DNA of 64,000 bases from an uncultured Planctomycetia bacterium (GCA_964415355.1 CAYPYS010000003.1:68156-132155); one strand, 5' to 3'; positions 36,884 through 44,769 are shown, counted from the first letter of the stretch. The notes: generated from the sequence alone by a model not told the origin. Numbers and translations: made by a program.

Positions 36884-39145
36884 ATGCTAAACTTATATGC
36901 GATGAATCCAAAGCGCAGGCTCAATGCAGCCGCTTTTATCCTAGGCCTGACCTCGATGATAGGTCAGATAATTATCATAAGAGAGCTTGTGGTTGTATTC
37001 TATGGTAATGAGCTCTCGCTCGGAGTCATACTCGCAAGCTGGCTGTTCTGGACCTCATTCGGAAGCTATGCGCTAGGCAGACTGGTCGATAAATTAAAAT
37101 CCAAAGAAAAACTCCTCTCTTATATCCAACTTCTTACTGCTATAGCGCTGCCCTTAAATATATTTATTATACGTAATGTAAAATCAATACTAAATATCGC
37201 GCCTGGCAAGATCATTGGATTCGTGCCAATGCTTGGTTCATCTTTTTTATCTTTATCCTTTATATGCATACTTCTGGGATTCACATTTACATTAATATCA
37301 AAGATCGCAACAAGAGAAACCAGGCTCCCATCGGCCGAGATAGGGAAAATCTATTTATTAGAGGGCGTAGGGGCTTCTATAGGAGGCCTGATATACAGTT
37401 TTTTTCTTATCAAGGCTCTCTCGCCTTTCCAAAATATATTCATAGTAGGCGGCGTGAATCTTTTGATCTCGCTTTTATTCAATAAAAATATACTGCAGAT
37501 CCTCTACCTGTCCTTTATATCGATTGCCTTCATATCAAACTGGCCATATTATCTAGAGAAATACACGAGAAAGCTGCAATTTAAACCATTTGAATTAGTA
37601 GAAAGCGCTGATTCCATATACGGGAATATCTCTATTACGAAGACAGGGGAAGAATTCAGTTTTTATGAAAATGGCCTTCTGGCTTTTACGAGCGGCGACC
37701 TGTTGACCAGCGAAGAATCCGTTCACTATGCTATGCTGGAACACCCCTTTCCTGAGAAAGTACTCCTTATAGGCGGCGGCGTCGGGGGGCCTCTGAAGGA
37801 AATCTTAAAACATCCTGTAAAAAAAGTTGACTATGTAGAATTAGACCCTCTGATCATAGAACTTTCTGAAAAACACCTGCCTCTTATAGAAGACAAAAGA
37901 GTAAATGTCGCGCATGTGGACGGGAGACTCTTTGTCAAATCTGCTGCTTCAGAAAATTACGACGTAATAATATTAAACATTCCTGATCCATATAATGCAA
38001 TGCTAAACAGGTTTTACTCCATGGAATTTTTCAGGGAGGCCAAAAAAATACTGACGCCGGATGGAATATTTTCTTTTTCGCTTACTTCCTCTGAAAATTA
38101 TCTAAATCCCGAACAGGCGTATTATTTTGCGAGTATTTATAACACCTTGAAAAAAGAATTCATGGATATTAAAATCTTCCCTGGCGACAGCGCGACTTTT
38201 CTCGCTTCTAATAACGCCGGCGTCCTGACGTATTCAGCTGATCTCCTAACCCATAGGCTTAAGGAAAGAGAGATAGACGCAAAATTTGTCAGAGAGTACT
38301 ATCTGCCTTTTAAGCTGGATCCATTGCGCATTAAATACATAGAAGACAGCGTAAAAGAATATAAAAAAGCAAAAATAAACCGGGATTTTAAACCTATTGG
38401 TTACTTTTATCACGCCTCGCTATGGATGACTATGTTTCACAGCGGCAAAGGCATTTTACCATTTCTTGAAAAAATAAATTTATCTTTATTTATATCGATC
38501 CTTACTATTTTATTTCTCCTCATACTTTTAATCCAGAAATTCAGGAAAGCCAAGACAAGGATGCCTGTGATACTATCCATAGGCACCACCGGCATGAGCG
38601 AAATCTCTTTTCAGATAATCGTCATACTCGCCTTTCAGTTTTTATATGGGAACATGTACTACAGAATAGGGCTCATCCTGACCTCGTTCATGATAGGTCT
38701 TGTATTAGGGGCTTATTTTATAAATAAAGTACTTGAAAGGATAGATGAAAAAACCCTGTATCTAAAAACCCAGATATTTATATGCGCGTATCCCCTGATC
38801 CTTCCTATAATATTTATCCATATAGCAAAAATTAATATAACAAGGCCGGACATAGGGGGAGTCCTGCAATTAAGTTTTGCATTTTTGCCTATAATAGCCG
38901 GGTTTCTTGGAGGAGTCCAGTTCCCACTTGCAAATAAAATATGCCTTAAGGGCTATGAAGATGTAGGAAAAACTACGGGGATTCTATATGGCGTTGATCT
39001 ATTCGGGGCCTGCGTCGGTGGGATATTAATAGGCTTACTGTTCGTTCCAGTACTCGGCATCATCCAAACCTGCGTACTCCTTTCAGTCATCAACTTTCTT
39101 ATATTAATACTCCTTAAGTTAACTTTTAACATTGTTGAAAGTTAA
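36884..39145 (+). CDS. spermidine-synthase-like SAM-dependent transferase fused between two polytopic membrane domains
   Basis: 753 aa; LLIGGGVGGPLKEIL...DVIILNIPDPY aminopropyltransferase-fold core flanked by TM regions; only long plus-strand gene. Confidence 0.55.
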   Translation: MLNLYAMNPKRRLNAAAFILGLTSMIGQIIIIRELVVVFYGNELSLGVILASWLFWTSFGSYALGRLVDKLKSKEKLLSYIQLLTAIALPLNIFIIRNVKSILNIAPGKIIGFVPMLGSSFLSLSFICILLGFTFTLISKIATRETRLPSAEIGKIYLLEGVGASIGGLIYSFFLIKALSPFQNIFIVGGVNLLISLLFNKNILQILYLSFISIAFISNWPYYLEKYTRKLQFKPFELVESADSIYGNISITKTGEEFSFYENGLLAFTSGDLLTSEESVHYAMLEHPFPEKVLLIGGGVGGPLKEILKHPVKKVDYVELDPLIIELSEKHLPLIEDKRVNVAHVDGRLFVKSAASENYDVIILNIPDPYNAMLNRFYSMEFFREAKKILTPDGIFSFSLTSSENYLNPEQAYYFASIYNTLKKEFMDIKIFPGDSATFLASNNAGVLTYSADLLTHRLKEREIDAKFVREYYLPFKLDPLRIKYIEDSVKEYKKAKINRDFKPIGYFYHASLWMTMFHSGKGILPFLEKINLSLFISILTILFLLILLIQKFRKAKTRMPVILSIGTTGMSEISFQIIVILAFQFLYGNMYYRIGLILTSFMIGLVLGAYFINKVLERIDEKTLYLKTQIFICAYPLILPIIFIHIAKINITRPDIGGVLQLSFAFLPIIAGFLGGVQFPLANKICLKGYEDVGKTTGILYGVDLFGACVGGILIGLLFVPVLGIIQTCVLLSVINFLILILLKLTFNIVES

Positions 39146-39150
39146 CTTTG
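39113..39150. repeat. degenerate element copy 19a (tandem pair, between convergent genes)
   Basis: gttaacttttaacattgttgaaagttaac; supplies stop of plus-strand gene. Confidence 0.6.
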
Positions 39151-39154
39151 TACG

Positions 39155-39192
39155 TTAAGTTTACATTTCAACAATGTTAAAGTGTAAAGTTA
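39155..39192. repeat. element copy 19b
   Basis: ttaagtttacatttcaacaatgttaaagtgtaaagtta; supplies Memo-AMMECR1 stop. Confidence 0.85.
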
Positions 39193-44054: not shown

Positions 44055-44064
44055 AGGGTGTTTT

Positions 44065-44721
44065 TTATTTGCTGGCGTACCCTACAGGAATAATGTACAA
44101 AGGAACAAGCTCTTCCGAAAGACCGAGCAATTCCTTAACTTCTTCATCTGAAAATGCGCCCAAAGGGATAGAGCCTAGTCCTTCTGCAACTGCCTGCAAG
44201 TGCACATTCTGTGCAGCATGACCGACTTCGATATACACATAATTCTCGCCCCTCTCGCCATAGCGACCTGTTGTCCTTTTAAAATCAGCGCATATGACTA
44301 TGTCTATCGAAGCATCTCTAACAAAACTCTGACCATAGCAGGCCCGGAAAAGCTCTGGCCGCATATCTTTGTCTTTAAGTCTCTTTAAAGCGTGGACATC
44401 AGGTACATATTGAAAAAATCCATCAGCGCTTATGAGGTAGATTTCCAAAGGATATGTGGCTCCGGCTGAGGGTGCGCTACGAAAATTTTTCTTTTCACTG
44501 GTAATCCCCTGGCAAGACCAGAGAAGCTGGCTGATCTGGTCAAGCGTCAATGCTTCACCTGACAGACTTCTCTCAGACCTCCTTCTCTTGATAGTTTCCT
44601 CTAAAGAAATATTGCCTTTTTCTTTGGGTTTGGGAAGCTTTACTATCATGTCCTCGTCCCCGTACGCAAACGTAGATAAAAATAACAAAATCACACCAAC
44701 AATATATCTACAAGACCTCAT
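44065..44721 (-). CDS. SagB-type dehydrogenase/nitroreductase-fold protein with N-terminal signal peptide
   Basis: RRSERS...PSAGATYPLEIY...EVGHAAQNVHLQA; hydrophobic N-terminus MRSCRYIVGVILLFLSTFAYG. Confidence 0.55.
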   Translation of the reverse strand: MRSCRYIVGVILLFLSTFAYGDEDMIVKLPKPKEKGNISLEETIKRRRSERSLSGEALTLDQISQLLWSCQGITSEKKNFRSAPSAGATYPLEIYLISADGFFQYVPDVHALKRLKDKDMRPELFRACYGQSFVRDASIDIVICADFKRTTGRYGERGENYVYIEVGHAAQNVHLQAVAEGLGSIPLGAFSDEEVKELLGLSEELVPLYIIPVGYASK

Positions 44722-44732
44722 TCACTAATCCT

Positions 44733-44769
44733 TAACTTTACACTTTAACGTTGTTGAAATGTAAAGTTA
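44733..44769. repeat. element copy 22
   Basis: taactttacactttaacgttgttgaaatgtaaagtta; supplies thyA stop. Confidence 0.9.

What the first reader, a model, noticed from the sequence alone, without database searches (positions are those of the whole stretch)
39113..44769. Element-bounded AmmeMemoRadiSam locus with envelope-targeted and flavo-FeS partners
Between element copies at 39.1 kb and 44.7 kb lie seven co-directional genes. They encode a SagB-type dehydrogenase with a signal peptide, lgt, a NosR-like protein (periplasmic FMN_bind domain plus membrane domain with two Cys clusters), a 69-aa TM peptide and the PFL-activase-like radical SAM enzyme (coupled by ATGA/GTGA overlaps), then a 50-aa TM peptide and a Memo+AMMECR1 fusion with a lipoprotein-type signal. 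The three-component AmmeMemoRadiSam system is conserved but functionally uncharacterised. Here components B and A are fused and apparently exported. They are embedded with a flavin-dependent periplasm-facing redox module, and ApbE (needed to flavinylate FMN_bind domains) is encoded elsewhere in the window. This points to an envelope-located radical-SAM-dependent modification system.
Basis: partly seen in the sequence, partly recalled or inferred. Interest (0 to 1): 0.75.

Follow-up and report, generated by a model that had tools for sequence, protein, structure and literature searches.

The report
Exported AmmeMemoRadiSam system, split radical-SAM enzyme
This Omnitrophota locus encodes a version of the uncharacterised Memo/AMMECR1/radical-SAM system that appears to work outside the cytoplasm, and its two "small peptides" are detached N-terminal pieces of the radical-SAM enzyme, one carrying a Tat-type export signal.

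Summary
All seven genes exist, and the family models confirm radical SAM (TIGR04337), Memo plus AMMECR1 (TIGR04336/04335 fusion), lgt, a SagB-type nitroreductase and an FMN_bind+NapH-like protein. ApbE lies at 9998-10861.

"Element-bounded" is misleading. The 38-nt palindrome occurs 27 times in the window and four times in this locus, nearly always at a stop codon.

The two small ORFs are the main news. Their EA[KR]YY tails are the normal N-terminal beta-strand of this radical-SAM family, which the 325-aa enzyme lacks.
- p69 is a membrane anchor plus that strand.
- p50 aligns end to end with the twin-arginine (Tat) signal plus strand of full-length homologues.

Elsewhere the window's NosR-like, p69 and radical-SAM genes occur as one polypeptide. 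Other homologues carry RR-Tat or Sec signals, or DsbD-like or FMN_bind domains. Where Memo-AMMECR1 lies next to a signal-bearing enzyme it also has a signal, and the lipobox cysteine is kept in 37 of 38 loci.

Best reading: an extracytoplasmic AmmeMemoRadiSam variant wired to a trans-membrane electron conduit. Hitchhiker export of the enzyme core by p50 is inferred only.

SagB and lgt look like thyA-lgt synteny. The substrate is unknown.

The parts
39190..40665 (-). Memo + AMMECR1 fusion (AmmeMemoRadiSam proteins B+A) with a lipoprotein-type signal (MKKILIFIILVSLMSC)
   Evidence: TIGR04336 265 bits and TIGR04335 187 bits; PF01875 and PF01871. The lipobox cysteine is conserved in 37 of 38 loci. 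The LRGCIG motif is at residue 361.
40669..40821 (-). p50: stand-alone Tat-like signal (TRKEFLR plus h-region) followed by the radical-SAM family's first beta-strand (KEARYYKNLAG). It ends 3 nt upstream of the Memo-AMMECR1 start.
   Evidence: It lies between the radical-SAM and Memo-AMMECR1 genes in 12 genome loci and 26 of 29 metagenome loci. It shows a coding signature. It aligns collinearly with the N-terminus of the RR-Tat radical-SAM protein P0396 (BLASTP 2e-6; hhalign probability 96%, E 3e-9). Appending its tail extends the TIGR04337 match to profile position 1 and adds 6.8 bits.
40899..41876 (-). Radical-SAM core (AmmeMemoSam_rS) with a GTG start. It lacks the family's N-terminal strand and any signal.
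   Evidence: TIGR04337 388.7 bits, matching the profile only from position 11. CX3CX2C at C71/C75/C78, plus an N-terminal C6/C9/C13/C23 group and a C-terminal C287/C290/C313/C316 group. The closest solved structure is PFL-activating enzyme.
41873..42082 (-). p69: N-terminal TM helix plus linker plus ...PREAKYYRVTE. Its stop overlaps the radical-SAM start (GTGA) and its start overlaps the NosR-like stop (ATGA).
   Evidence: All 27 loci that contain the radical-SAM start have an ORF ending in [PS][RK]EA[KR]YY[RK]V..E at that start. In L004, L007, L014 and L035 the tail is the C-terminus of a signal-peptide + FMN_bind protein. The chimera extends the TIGR04337 match to position 1 and adds 5.6 bits. 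Fused equivalents are P0138, P0274, P0139 and P0145.
42079..43245 (-). NosR-like / NapH-like flavinylated membrane protein. It has an N-terminal TM, a periplasmic FMN_bind domain (DAITHAS at 143) and a polytopic domain with CSYMCP (273) and CNYFC (364) on predicted cytoplasmic loops.
   Evidence: PF04205 and PF12801. The NosR model NF046105 scores only 77.9 against a cut-off of 1000. Charge-based topology is and motif positions. Orthologues occur in L032-L034. Single-polypeptide fusions with the radical-SAM enzyme are P0139, P0145 and P0147.
36884..39145 (+). 753-aa polytopic membrane protein with a spermidine-synthase-like domain (fused MFS/spermidine synthase family), convergent on Memo-AMMECR1. 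It is a recurrent partner of the exported system.
   Evidence: NF037959 86.7 bits (cut-off 40) and PF01564. It is adjacent in essentially all loci of the window clade. It lies between Memo-AMMECR1 and the radical-SAM gene in Bacteroidales L018 and L020, and directly after a Tat-signal radical-SAM gene in Saccharicenans L058. It has GGG[VT]GG in place of GGGDGG.
43293..44054 (-). lgt (prolipoprotein diacylglyceryl transferase). Probably a housekeeping gene in thyA-lgt synteny, though it would lipidate the Memo-AMMECR1 lipoprotein.
   Evidence: TIGR00544 195.8 bits and PF01790. The order thyA-(SagB)-lgt is kept in all window-clade loci. In L016 and L017 that block and Memo-AMMECR1 are present but no radical-SAM gene lies nearby.
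44065..44721 (-). SagB-type nitroreductase-fold protein with a Sec-type signal peptide. A variable neighbour, probably not a core component.
   Evidence: TIGR03605 117.6 bits and PF00881. The signal is conserved in L007, L017 and L033. The gene is absent from most related loci.
39155..39192 (.). 38-nt palindromic intergenic element. Its TTA end is the stop codon of Memo-AMMECR1. A degenerate copy at 39116-39148 covers the stop of the spermidine-synthase-like gene.
40864..40901 (.). Palindromic element copy between the radical-SAM stop and the p50 start
43258..43295 (.). Palindromic element copy between the lgt stop and the NosR-like start
44732..44769 (.). Palindromic element copy at the thyA stop, upstream of the SagB-like gene
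9998..10861 (-). ApbE flavin transferase. It would flavinylate the FMN_bind domain, but is not specific to this locus because Rnf genes lie at 819-3760.
   Evidence: PF02424 233 bits; RnfD PF03116 at 2828-3760

Best explanation
The core of the locus is NosR-like, p69, radical SAM, p50 and Memo-AMMECR1, with the convergent spermidine-synthase-like membrane protein as a likely partner. It is an extracytoplasmic variant of the AmmeMemoRadiSam system in which the radical-SAM enzyme has been split.

Shown:
- The 325-aa enzyme lacks the family's first beta-strand (EAxYY).
- That strand is encoded on two small proteins. p69 is a membrane anchor plus the strand and is translationally coupled to the enzyme. 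p50 is a Tat-type signal plus the strand and is coupled to Memo-AMMECR1.
- Memo-AMMECR1 carries a conserved lipoprotein signal.
- The window's three genes NosR-like, p69 and radical SAM exist as one polypeptide in other organisms.

Inferred:
1. Memo-AMMECR1 is exported by Sec, lipidated and anchored on the outer face of the inner membrane.
2. The Fe-S-loaded enzyme core receives its missing strand in trans. p50 targets it to the Tat translocon as a hitchhiker. p69 holds it at the membrane next to the flavin domain. In some relatives the p69-type tail is itself the C-terminus of an FMN_bind protein.
3. The NosR-like protein passes electrons from the cytoplasmic or quinol side, through its CX3CP centres, to the ApbE-attached periplasmic FMN. 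The FMN then reduces the radical-SAM cluster, replacing cytoplasmic flavodoxin. Other clades use a DsbD/CcdA-like conduit instead.
4. Radical SAM, Memo and AMMECR1 then modify an envelope-located substrate. Its identity and the source of SAM outside the cytoplasm are unknown.

My sub-probabilities: small ORFs are detached enzyme N-termini, 0.9; NosR-like protein is functionally coupled to the enzyme, 0.8; enzyme core acts outside the cytoplasm, 0.6; p50-mediated Tat hitchhiking, 0.4.
For: Identity of the tails:
- Canonical family members begin MKEA[LMK][FY]Y.KL..gkV.C.
- Appending the p69 or p50 tail to the window enzyme moves the TIGR04337 match from profile position 11 to position 1 and adds 5.6 or 6.8 bits.
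- In the AF2 model of the full-length RR-Tat homologue P0396 (mean pLDDT 91.6), KEARYYKKLP has pLDDT 98. Y46-K48 forms a hairpin with V54-C56. The window's split falls in the hairpin turn.
- p50 aligns over its whole length with the N-terminus of P0396 and of the family profile.

Export signals in the family:
- About 30 of the 150 nearest 50%-identity representatives carry RR signals.
- Among the 120 best profile hits, 30 have RR-Tat signals, 4 have KR or RK, and 82 have some other N-terminal extension. On inspection most of these read as Sec-type signals or TM anchors, and a few show no clear hydrophobic segment. Only 4 have no extension.
- L057 has ITRRSFLR...DKEARYYKK fused to the enzyme core. 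Bacteroidales L018 and L020 have a KR-type signal.

Rosetta-stone fusions:
- P0139 and P0145: FMN_bind + Fer4_5 + TM + radical SAM.
- P0147: DsbD_2 + FMN_bind + Fer4_5 + radical SAM.
- P0132 and P0144: FMN_bind + radical SAM with no TM in between.
- P0133 and P0151: DsbD_2 + radical SAM.
- P0129 and P0130: CBM_11 or beta-propeller + radical SAM.
- P0138: TM + radical SAM + Memo + AMMECR1.

Topology: the NosR-like C-terminal tail has 7 K+R against 1 D+E, so it is predicted cytoplasmic. The extra p69-type TM would therefore carry the chain outward.

Concordance of signals:
- Memo-AMMECR1 has a signal wherever the adjacent enzyme does: the window clade, L057, L018, L020, L062 and L063.
- Both appear to lack one in L022. 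For its enzyme this rests on the tblastn offset, because the ORF runs off the contig end.

Conservation:
- A p69-type ORF is present in 27 of 27 loci that contain the enzyme start. p50 is present in 38 loci.
- DsbD_2 is adjacent in L062 and L063.

Precedent: Tat hitchhiking, and NapH-like flavinylated conduits that feed extracytosolic enzymes, are both described (PMC10924467; PMC8238504).
Against: - No radical-SAM enzyme is known to me to work outside the cytoplasm. SAM and Fe-S assembly are cytoplasmic.
- p50 has RK, not RR. Across the clade it is RK, RS, RA or once RR. Tat genes were not found in the window.
- Most N-terminal extensions in the family (82 of 120) are not Tat-type, and most of those look Sec-type. 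Sec export is not expected to carry an Fe-S protein.
- In most species the p69 linker just after the TM is K/R-rich (KANKPKP...). That would equally fit a cytoplasmic tail.
- The DsbD_2 to radical-SAM linker in P0133 is very basic.
- p69 and p50 carry the same strand, so they cannot both occupy one enzyme molecule at the same time.
- The full NosR-like gene is present in only about 4 of roughly 22 non-redundant clade loci.
- All topology calls are crude charge and hydropathy estimates.
- Several Tat-signal enzyme genes have no Memo/AMMECR1 gene nearby.
Confidence: 0.6

Rival explanations
1. Membrane-tethered but cytoplasmic enzyme. p69 and p50 insert N-out/C-in and use the donated strand to hold the radical-SAM core on the inner face of the membrane. 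There it receives electrons from the cytoplasmic CX3CP centres of the NosR-like protein and uses cytoplasmic SAM. Its product is then flipped or exported and finished by the periplasmic Memo-AMMECR1 lipoprotein.
For: - SAM and Fe-S assembly are cytoplasmic (general knowledge).
- The p69 linkers after the TM are K/R-rich in most species.
- p50 has RK rather than RR.
- Most family signals are not Tat-type and look Sec-type.
- The Cys motifs of the NosR-like protein are predicted to be cytoplasmic.
Against: - The same tail is the C-terminus of signal-peptide + FMN_bind proteins with no TM in between: L004, L007 and L035, and also P0132 and P0144.
- Thirty true RR-Tat signals sit directly upstream of the strand in homologues.
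- NapH-like to radical-SAM fusions contain an extra TM that a cytoplasmic enzyme would not need.
- P0138 puts radical SAM, Memo and AMMECR1 in one chain, and Memo-AMMECR1 is signal-bearing in this clade.
- Some homologues are fused to CBM_11 or beta-propeller domains.
Confidence: 0.25
2. p69 and p50 are RiPP-like precursor or substrate peptides. Their Glu...Tyr-Tyr tails would be modified by the radical-SAM enzyme and by Memo, in the manner of PqqA or MftA.
For: - They are small conserved ORFs next to a radical-SAM gene, with a conserved E-A-x-Y-Y near the C-terminus.
- From my own knowledge, Memo1 binds a Tyr-containing peptide.
Against: - The motif is the enzyme family's own N-terminus. It is present in cis in canonical, Tat-signal and Sec-signal members.
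- It is modelled with pLDDT 98 as a structural beta-hairpin strand of the enzyme.
- It extends the family profile match.
- No such peptides were found in loci outside the window clade where the enzyme is intact.
Confidence: 0.05
3. An ordinary cytoplasmic AmmeMemoRadiSam operon that happens to sit next to housekeeping and redox genes. The 'signals' would be mis-called starts and the small ORFs would be noise.
For: - thyA-lgt linkage looks like plain synteny.
- The SagB-like and NosR-like genes are variable.
- The repeat element is genome-wide.
Against: - The lipobox cysteine is kept in 37 of 38 loci.
- The enzyme's reading frame cannot be extended upstream to include the strand.
- p50 and p69 are conserved with a coding signature in 36 or more distinct versions.
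- Single-polypeptide fusions reproduce the gene order.
Confidence: 0.03

Closest known systems
AmmeMemoRadiSam system (TIGR04335 AMMECR1-like A, TIGR04336 Memo-like B, TIGR04337 radical SAM)
   Same: All three family models are matched well above their cut-offs, and the genes are adjacent. The function is still uncharacterised in the searchable literature. An earlier prediction was an RNA base modification (PMC2034487).
   Different: - A and B are fused and carry a lipoprotein signal.
- The radical-SAM enzyme is split from its first strand, which is supplied by two membrane-targeted mini-proteins.
- The system is linked, by gene order here and by fusion elsewhere, to trans-membrane electron conduits.
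- A predicted extracytoplasmic site argues against RNA as the substrate for this subfamily.
NapH-like ApbE-flavinylated extracytosolic electron-transfer systems (Meheust et al. 2021, PMC8238504), including NosR and PceC
   Same: An N-terminal extracytosolic FMN_bind domain with an [S/T]GA[S/T]-like site (THAS here), followed by a PF12801 polytopic domain with CX3C(P) motifs. Such modules are used interchangeably to feed extracytosolic oxidoreductases.
   Different: - The partner here is a radical-SAM enzyme with Memo/AMMECR1, a pairing not mentioned in that survey (0 occurrences of 'radical SAM' or 'Memo').
- It is not NosR itself: 77.9 bits against a cut-off of 1000, no C-terminal polyferredoxin, and no nos genes.
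Tat 'hitchhiker' co-export (for example hydrogenase small and large subunits, DmsAB)
   Same: A signal-less Fe-S protein is encoded next to a partner that carries a Tat-type signal (PMC10924467).
   Different: Here the signal-bearing partner would be only 50 aa. It consists of the signal plus one beta-strand cut from the passenger itself, and its motif is RK rather than RR. Nothing has been tested experimentally.
Pyruvate formate-lyase activating enzyme and other glycyl-radical activases
   Same: PFL-activating enzyme is the nearest solved structure and related HMMs also match (3c8f, E 7e-5; TIGR02493). The CX3CX2C core is shared.
   Different: The window enzyme has additional N- and C-terminal Cys4 groups. 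No glycyl-radical enzyme partner is present, and the predicted location differs.

Membership tests
AmmeMemoRadiSam system | Radical-SAM protein matching TIGR04337 above its cut-off, with a CX3CX2C motif | tested here: met
   388.7 bits against a cut-off of 220; C71/C75/C78
AmmeMemoRadiSam system | Memo-like protein B (TIGR04336) and AMMECR1-like protein A (TIGR04335) encoded alongside | tested here: met
   265 bits (cut-off 26) and 187 bits (cut-off 99) in one 491-aa fusion located 230 nt downstream of the radical-SAM gene
AmmeMemoRadiSam system | Full-length radical-SAM enzyme including the N-terminal EAxYY strand (profile positions 1-10) | tested here: not met
   The match starts at profile position 11, and the ORF cannot extend upstream. 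The strand is encoded in trans on p69 and p50.
NapH-like flavinylated extracytosolic electron-transfer system | PF12801 polytopic protein with an N-terminal FMN_bind domain behind a signal or anchor | tested here: met
   PF12801 49.3 bits and PF04205 45.3 bits; TM at residues 5-23
NapH-like flavinylated extracytosolic electron-transfer system | [S/T]GA[S/T]-like flavinylation site and an ApbE gene in the genome | tested here: inconclusive
   The site is D-A-I-T-H-A-S (His where Gly is usual). Relatives have THAT or TGAT. ApbE is present at 9998-10861 but is not in the cluster. Flavinylation itself cannot be tested here.
NosR (nitrous-oxide reductase regulator/electron donor) | Match to the NosR equivalog, a C-terminal polyferredoxin domain and nos gene context | tested here: not met
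   NF046105 77.9 bits against a cut-off of 1000. The protein ends right after the second Cys motif. No nos genes appear among the neighbours.
Twin-arginine (Tat) signal peptide (p50) | S/T-R-R-x-F-L-K motif followed by a moderately hydrophobic h-region | tested here: inconclusive
   The window has T-R-K-E-F-L-R. Across the clade the pair is RK, with RS, RA and once RR. p50 is homologous and collinear with true RR signals of full-length relatives.
Twin-arginine (Tat) signal peptide (p50) | Tat translocase (tatA/tatC) present in the organism | not tested
   No TatA-like ORF was found in the 64-kb window. The rest of the genome was not available.
Bacterial lipoprotein (Memo-AMMECR1) | Signal peptide ending in a lipobox [LVI][ASTVI][GAS]C | tested here: met
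   The window has L-M-S-C (Met at position -2 is unusual). Relatives mostly have L-F-S-C or L-C-S-C. The cysteine is conserved in 37 of 38 loci. Lipidation itself cannot be tested here.
SagB/TOMM dehydrogenase system | SagB-type domain together with YcaO cyclodehydratase and precursor genes | tested here: not met
   The domain is present (TIGR03605 117.6 bits). No YcaO or cyclodehydratase appears among the annotated neighbours.
Spermidine synthase (753-aa neighbour) | Equivalog-level match, and the GGGDGG decarboxylated-SAM-binding motif (motif from my own knowledge) | tested here: not met
   speE TIGR00417 99.5 bits against a cut-off of 249.6, and PRK03612 184.5 against 472. The motif is GGG[VTIL]GG throughout the clade. 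The protein does meet NF037959, fused MFS/spermidine synthase (86.7 bits against 40).
RiPP precursor peptides (p69, p50) | A leader/core peptide distinct from the enzyme and recognised as its substrate | tested here: not met
   The conserved tail is the enzyme family's own N-terminal strand.

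The most novel reading that the evidence does not exclude
A radical-SAM enzyme that works in the periplasm. Its Fe-S-loaded core is carried across the membrane by a free-standing 50-aa Tat signal peptide (p50), which docks by donating the enzyme's missing first beta-strand. 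The core is then held by a second strand-donating anchor (p69, or an FMN_bind protein in relatives). It is reduced by a covalently flavinylated NapH-like conduit instead of cytoplasmic flavodoxin. This would place the long-enigmatic Memo/AMMECR1/radical-SAM chemistry on an envelope substrate. It would also imply some route for SAM to reach the periplasm, possibly the co-occurring membrane protein with a SAM-binding fold.
Probability: 0.35. Interest if true: 0.88.

Novelty: new variant of a known kind. Interest (0 to 1): 0.72.

Why it matters
Memo and AMMECR1 are conserved from archaea to humans and are linked to disease, yet their biochemistry and that of their bacterial radical-SAM partner remain unknown. 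I found no functional study in the searchable literature.

A large signal-bearing subfamily of the radical-SAM enzyme (116 of the 120 best profile hits have an N-terminal extension) shifts where to look for a substrate. Its members are fused or adjacent to FMN_bind, NapH-like or DsbD-like conduits, and an adjacent Memo-AMMECR1 also carries a signal. At least for this subfamily the target would be in the envelope rather than RNA, and the electron donor is identified.

The split enzyme gives simple handles for experiments: two peptides whose binding, topology and necessity can be tested directly.

If the enzyme really acts outside the cytoplasm, it would be the first extracytoplasmic radical-SAM enzyme that I know of. 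It would also be a new kind of Tat hitchhiking, with a signal peptide acting in trans through strand complementation.

Tried and rejected
- Mobile-element or island reading of the flanking repeats. Rejected: the palindrome is genome-wide, sits at gene 3' ends, and also occurs inside the locus. Its hairpins (-11 to -21 kcal/mol) have no consistent U-tract, so it is not a classical intrinsic terminator either.
- RiPP or PQQ-like precursor reading of the YY peptides. This was my first idea. Rejected.
- Search for YY-tail small ORFs in loci outside the window clade: none found.
- Protein-database search with p50: only 7 hits, because such small ORFs are rarely called. The metagenome DNA scan was far more informative. 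Two of its hits (L055, L056) were unrelated Tat-signal proteins.
- Programmed frameshift that would fuse p69 to the enzyme. The A-rich run lies after the p69 stop, so there is no support.
- PDB sequence search for the enzyme: only PFL-activating enzyme at E 7e-5.
- Burroughs et al. 2019 (JBC), the Memo/PCAD superfamily paper, could not be read. I do not know whether secreted Memo versions are noted there.
- TatA motif search in the window: nothing. This is uninformative for a 64-kb fragment.
- I did not try to fold a p50+core chimera. It would only echo the fused homologues already in the alignment.

Full report
**1. What is there**

The window is from a Candidatus Omnitrophota genome: the best protein hits are all from that phylum.

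On the minus strand lie, in order:
- thyA, 44767-45531
- a SagB-type nitroreductase-fold gene, 44065-44721
- lgt, 43293-44054
- an FMN_bind + Fer4_5 membrane protein, here called NosR-like, 42079-43245
- a 69-aa ORF (p69), 41873-42082
- a radical-SAM gene, 40899-41876
- a 50-aa ORF (p50), 40669-40821
- a Memo+AMMECR1 fusion, 39190-40665

The scores are TIGR04337 388.7 bits, TIGR04336 265, TIGR04335 187, TIGR03605 117.6, lgt 195.8, plus PF04205 and PF12801. The ATGA and GTGA overlaps are real. ApbE is at 9998-10861, but it sits near an Rnf cluster.

**2. The 'bounding' element**

The 38-nt palindrome occurs 27 times in the 64-kb window against 0 expected. Four full copies lie within this locus.

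Of the 27 copies, 21 abut a stop codon. Typically the terminal TTA of the element is itself the TAA stop of a minus-strand gene. None lies inside a long ORF.

The copies fold into AU-rich hairpins (-11 to -21 kcal/mol, z-scores -4 to -7) with no consistent U-tract. The element is therefore genome-wide gene-end punctuation and not a boundary of this locus. It divides the seven genes into three groups: SagB-lgt, then NosR-like-p69-radical SAM, then p50-Memo-AMMECR1.

**3. Conservation**

I used a genome scan with the fusion protein and a metagenome scan with a p50 alignment, both analysed by tblastn.

The conserved order in the clade is thyA, (SagB), lgt, (FMN module), p69, radical SAM, p50, Memo-AMMECR1, followed by a convergent 753-aa spermidine-synthase-like membrane protein.
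- p50 lies between the radical-SAM and Memo-AMMECR1 genes in 12 genome loci and in 26 of 29 metagenome loci.
- All 27 loci that contain the radical-SAM start have an ORF ending in ...[PS][RK]EA[KR]YY[RK]V..E exactly at that start.
- The full NosR-like gene is present only in the window species and in L032-L034.
- In L004, L007, L014 and L035 a signal-peptide + FMN_bind protein carries the same tail as its own C-terminus.
- The remaining loci have only a TM + tail mini-protein.
- The SagB-like gene is sporadic.
- The lipobox cysteine of Memo-AMMECR1 is kept in 37 of 38 loci.
- p50 exists in 36 distinct DNA versions. All are intact and all stop at the same position, using three different stop codons. 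Its substitutions fall mostly at codon position 3, then 1, then 2.

**4. What the small ORFs are**

The window radical-SAM protein matches TIGR04337 only from profile position 11. Canonical family members begin MKEA[LMK][FY]Y.KL..gkV.C.

Appending the p69 or p50 tail moves the match to profile position 1 and adds 5.6 or 6.8 bits.

Homologues carry the same segment in cis behind different N-terminal modules:
- a true RR-Tat signal, as in L057 (ITRRSFLR...DKEARYYKK...CQLCP) and P0396
- a KR-type signal in Bacteroidales L018 and L020
- a Sec-type signal or a TM anchor

p50 aligns along its whole length with the first 51 residues of P0396 (BLASTP E 2e-6) and with the family profile (hhalign probability 96%, E 3e-9).

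An AF2 model of P0396 has mean pLDDT 91.6. KEARYYKKLP has pLDDT 98, and Y46-K48 forms a beta-hairpin with V54-C56. The signal helix and the linker are modelled with low confidence.

The window's split therefore falls in the hairpin turn. p69 and p50 each encode a targeting or anchor segment plus strand 1 of the enzyme. This rules out my initial RiPP-precursor idea.

**5. Link to electron conduits and to the outside**

Among the 150 nearest 50%-identity representatives, Pfam and phmmer scans show these architectures:
- P0139 and P0145: FMN_bind + Fer4_5 + TM + radical SAM. This is exactly the window's three genes as a single polypeptide.
- P0147: DsbD_2 + FMN_bind + Fer4_5 + radical SAM.
- P0132 and P0144: FMN_bind + radical SAM with no TM in between.
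- P0133 and P0151: DsbD_2 + radical SAM.
- P0129 and P0130: CBM_11 or beta-propeller + radical SAM.
- P0138: TM + radical SAM + Memo + AMMECR1.

Of the 120 best profile hits, 30 have RR-Tat signals, 4 have KR or RK, 82 have other extensions that mostly read as Sec-type signals or TM anchors, and only 4 have none.

Where Memo-AMMECR1 lies next to a signal-bearing enzyme, it has a signal too. This holds for L057, L018, L020, L062 and L063. In L022 both appear to lack one. For its enzyme this is inferred from the tblastn offset, because the ORF runs off the contig end.

L062 and L063 have a DsbD_2 gene directly downstream.

A crude charge analysis puts the NosR-like FMN domain outside and both CX3C motifs and the C-terminus inside. 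The additional p69-type TM in the fusions would therefore take the enzyme outward.

FMN_bind + NapH-like proteins are a described class of ApbE-flavinylated conduits for extracytosolic enzymes (PMC8238504). That survey does not mention radical-SAM or Memo partners.

**6. Mechanism**

The best-supported model is an extracytoplasmic AmmeMemoRadiSam variant.
- Memo-AMMECR1 is a lipoprotein.
- The enzyme core receives its first strand in trans.
- The flavinylated NosR-like protein supplies electrons. Other clades use an FMN_bind protein or a DsbD-like protein.

The step in which p50 carries the folded core through the Tat translocon as a hitchhiker (precedent: PMC10924467) is inference only.

Points against are:
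- the RK motif in p50
- the unknown Tat status of the organism
- the many Sec-type signals in an Fe-S enzyme family
- the basic linkers after the p69 TM in most species
- the lack of any known SAM supply outside the cytoplasm

The main rival is a core tethered to the membrane but acting on the cytoplasmic side.

The substrate remains unknown. An earlier proposal of RNA base modification (PMC2034487) fits poorly with an exported subfamily.

**7. Peripheral genes**

thyA, (SagB) and lgt look like local synteny. In L016 and L017 the thyA-(SagB)-lgt block and Memo-AMMECR1 are present, but no radical-SAM gene or p50 lies nearby. From my own knowledge, lgt-thyA linkage is also known in E. coli.

The 753-aa membrane protein is the more interesting neighbour.
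- It is adjacent in the whole window clade.
- It lies between Memo-AMMECR1 and the radical-SAM gene in Bacteroidales.
- It lies directly after a Tat-signal radical-SAM gene in Saccharicenans.
- It lacks the GGGDGG motif.
- By charge distribution, its SAM-fold domain may face the periplasm (low confidence).

**8. Verdict**

The interpretation points in the right direction but is wrong about the boundaries and about the nature of the small ORFs.

The finding is a new variant of a known but uncharacterised system. It comes with an unusual and testable split-enzyme arrangement and a possible periplasmic radical-SAM enzyme.

Noticed in passing
window, 27 sites (for example 3784-3812, 4448-4476, 20414-20442, 47099-47127, 60103-60131): A genome-wide 38-nt AU-rich palindrome (consensus core TTTACATTTCAACAACGTTAAAGTGTAAA) lies in intergenic DNA only. 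21 of the 27 copies abut a stop codon. Typically the gene's TAA stop is the terminal TTA of the element, so the stop codon sits in the base of the hairpin. There is no consistent U-tract. It may be a REP-like mRNA 3'-end or processing element.
   Followed up: partly
window 36884-39145 (+); L018 11557-13656; L020 11355-13589; L058 9107-11296: A polytopic 'fused MFS/spermidine synthase' protein of about 700-750 aa recurs next to exported AmmeMemoRadiSam genes in three phyla. It has GGG[VT]GG instead of the GGGDGG motif that binds decarboxylated SAM, and N[IL]PDP instead of DSxDP. Charge distribution suggests that the SAM-fold domain faces the periplasm. It could be relevant to SAM handling outside the cytoplasm.
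   Followed up: partly
P0278-P0396, for example P0310, P0316, P0318: Most signal-bearing members of this radical-SAM subfamily have what look like ordinary cleavable Sec signal peptides. After cleavage, about 3-6 residues would precede the canonical LKEALFY N-terminus. Sec export of a multi-Fe-S enzyme is unexpected and unexplained.
   Followed up: no
window 40663-40821: p50 and Memo-AMMECR1 are in the same reading frame, separated only by TAA plus one codon (TAA ACC ATG). The same 3-nt spacing and frame occur in many related loci (for example L004, L005, L006, L011, L014, L015) but not in all (L007, L009). I did not examine whether stop-codon readthrough matters.
   Followed up: no
window 44065-44721 (-); L007, L017, L033: The SagB-type, FMN-dependent-fold nitroreductase has a conserved Sec-type signal peptide (cleavage near SYG/SYA-E) and no YcaO partner. 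It sits between thyA and lgt in only some genomes. A Sec-exported flavoenzyme is itself odd.
   Followed up: partly
window 819-3760 and 9998-10861: Rnf complex genes (an RnfB-like Fe-S protein at 819-1646 and RnfD at 2828-3760) and ApbE lie in the same window. ApbE therefore probably serves Rnf as well as the NosR-like protein.
   Followed up: partly
P0173, P0177, P0184, P0186, P0190, P0198, P0199, P0209, P0214, P0229, P0234, P0236, P0240, P0252: These are single polypeptides of about 900-1150 aa in the order radical SAM, AMMECR1, Memo. They have no signal and have a W-W-H type N-terminus instead of EAxYY. They form a separate, apparently cytoplasmic, triple-fusion branch of the family.
   Followed up: no
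L058 7103-7999: A DUF362 protein (PF04015) is encoded immediately upstream of the Tat-signal radical-SAM gene and the spermidine-synthase-like gene in a Saccharicenans genome.
   Followed up: no
P0129, P0130: In these homologues the radical-SAM domain is fused behind a CBM_11 carbohydrate-binding domain or a Reg_prop/PorZ-like beta-propeller. Both domain types are typical of secreted or cell-surface proteins.
   Followed up: no
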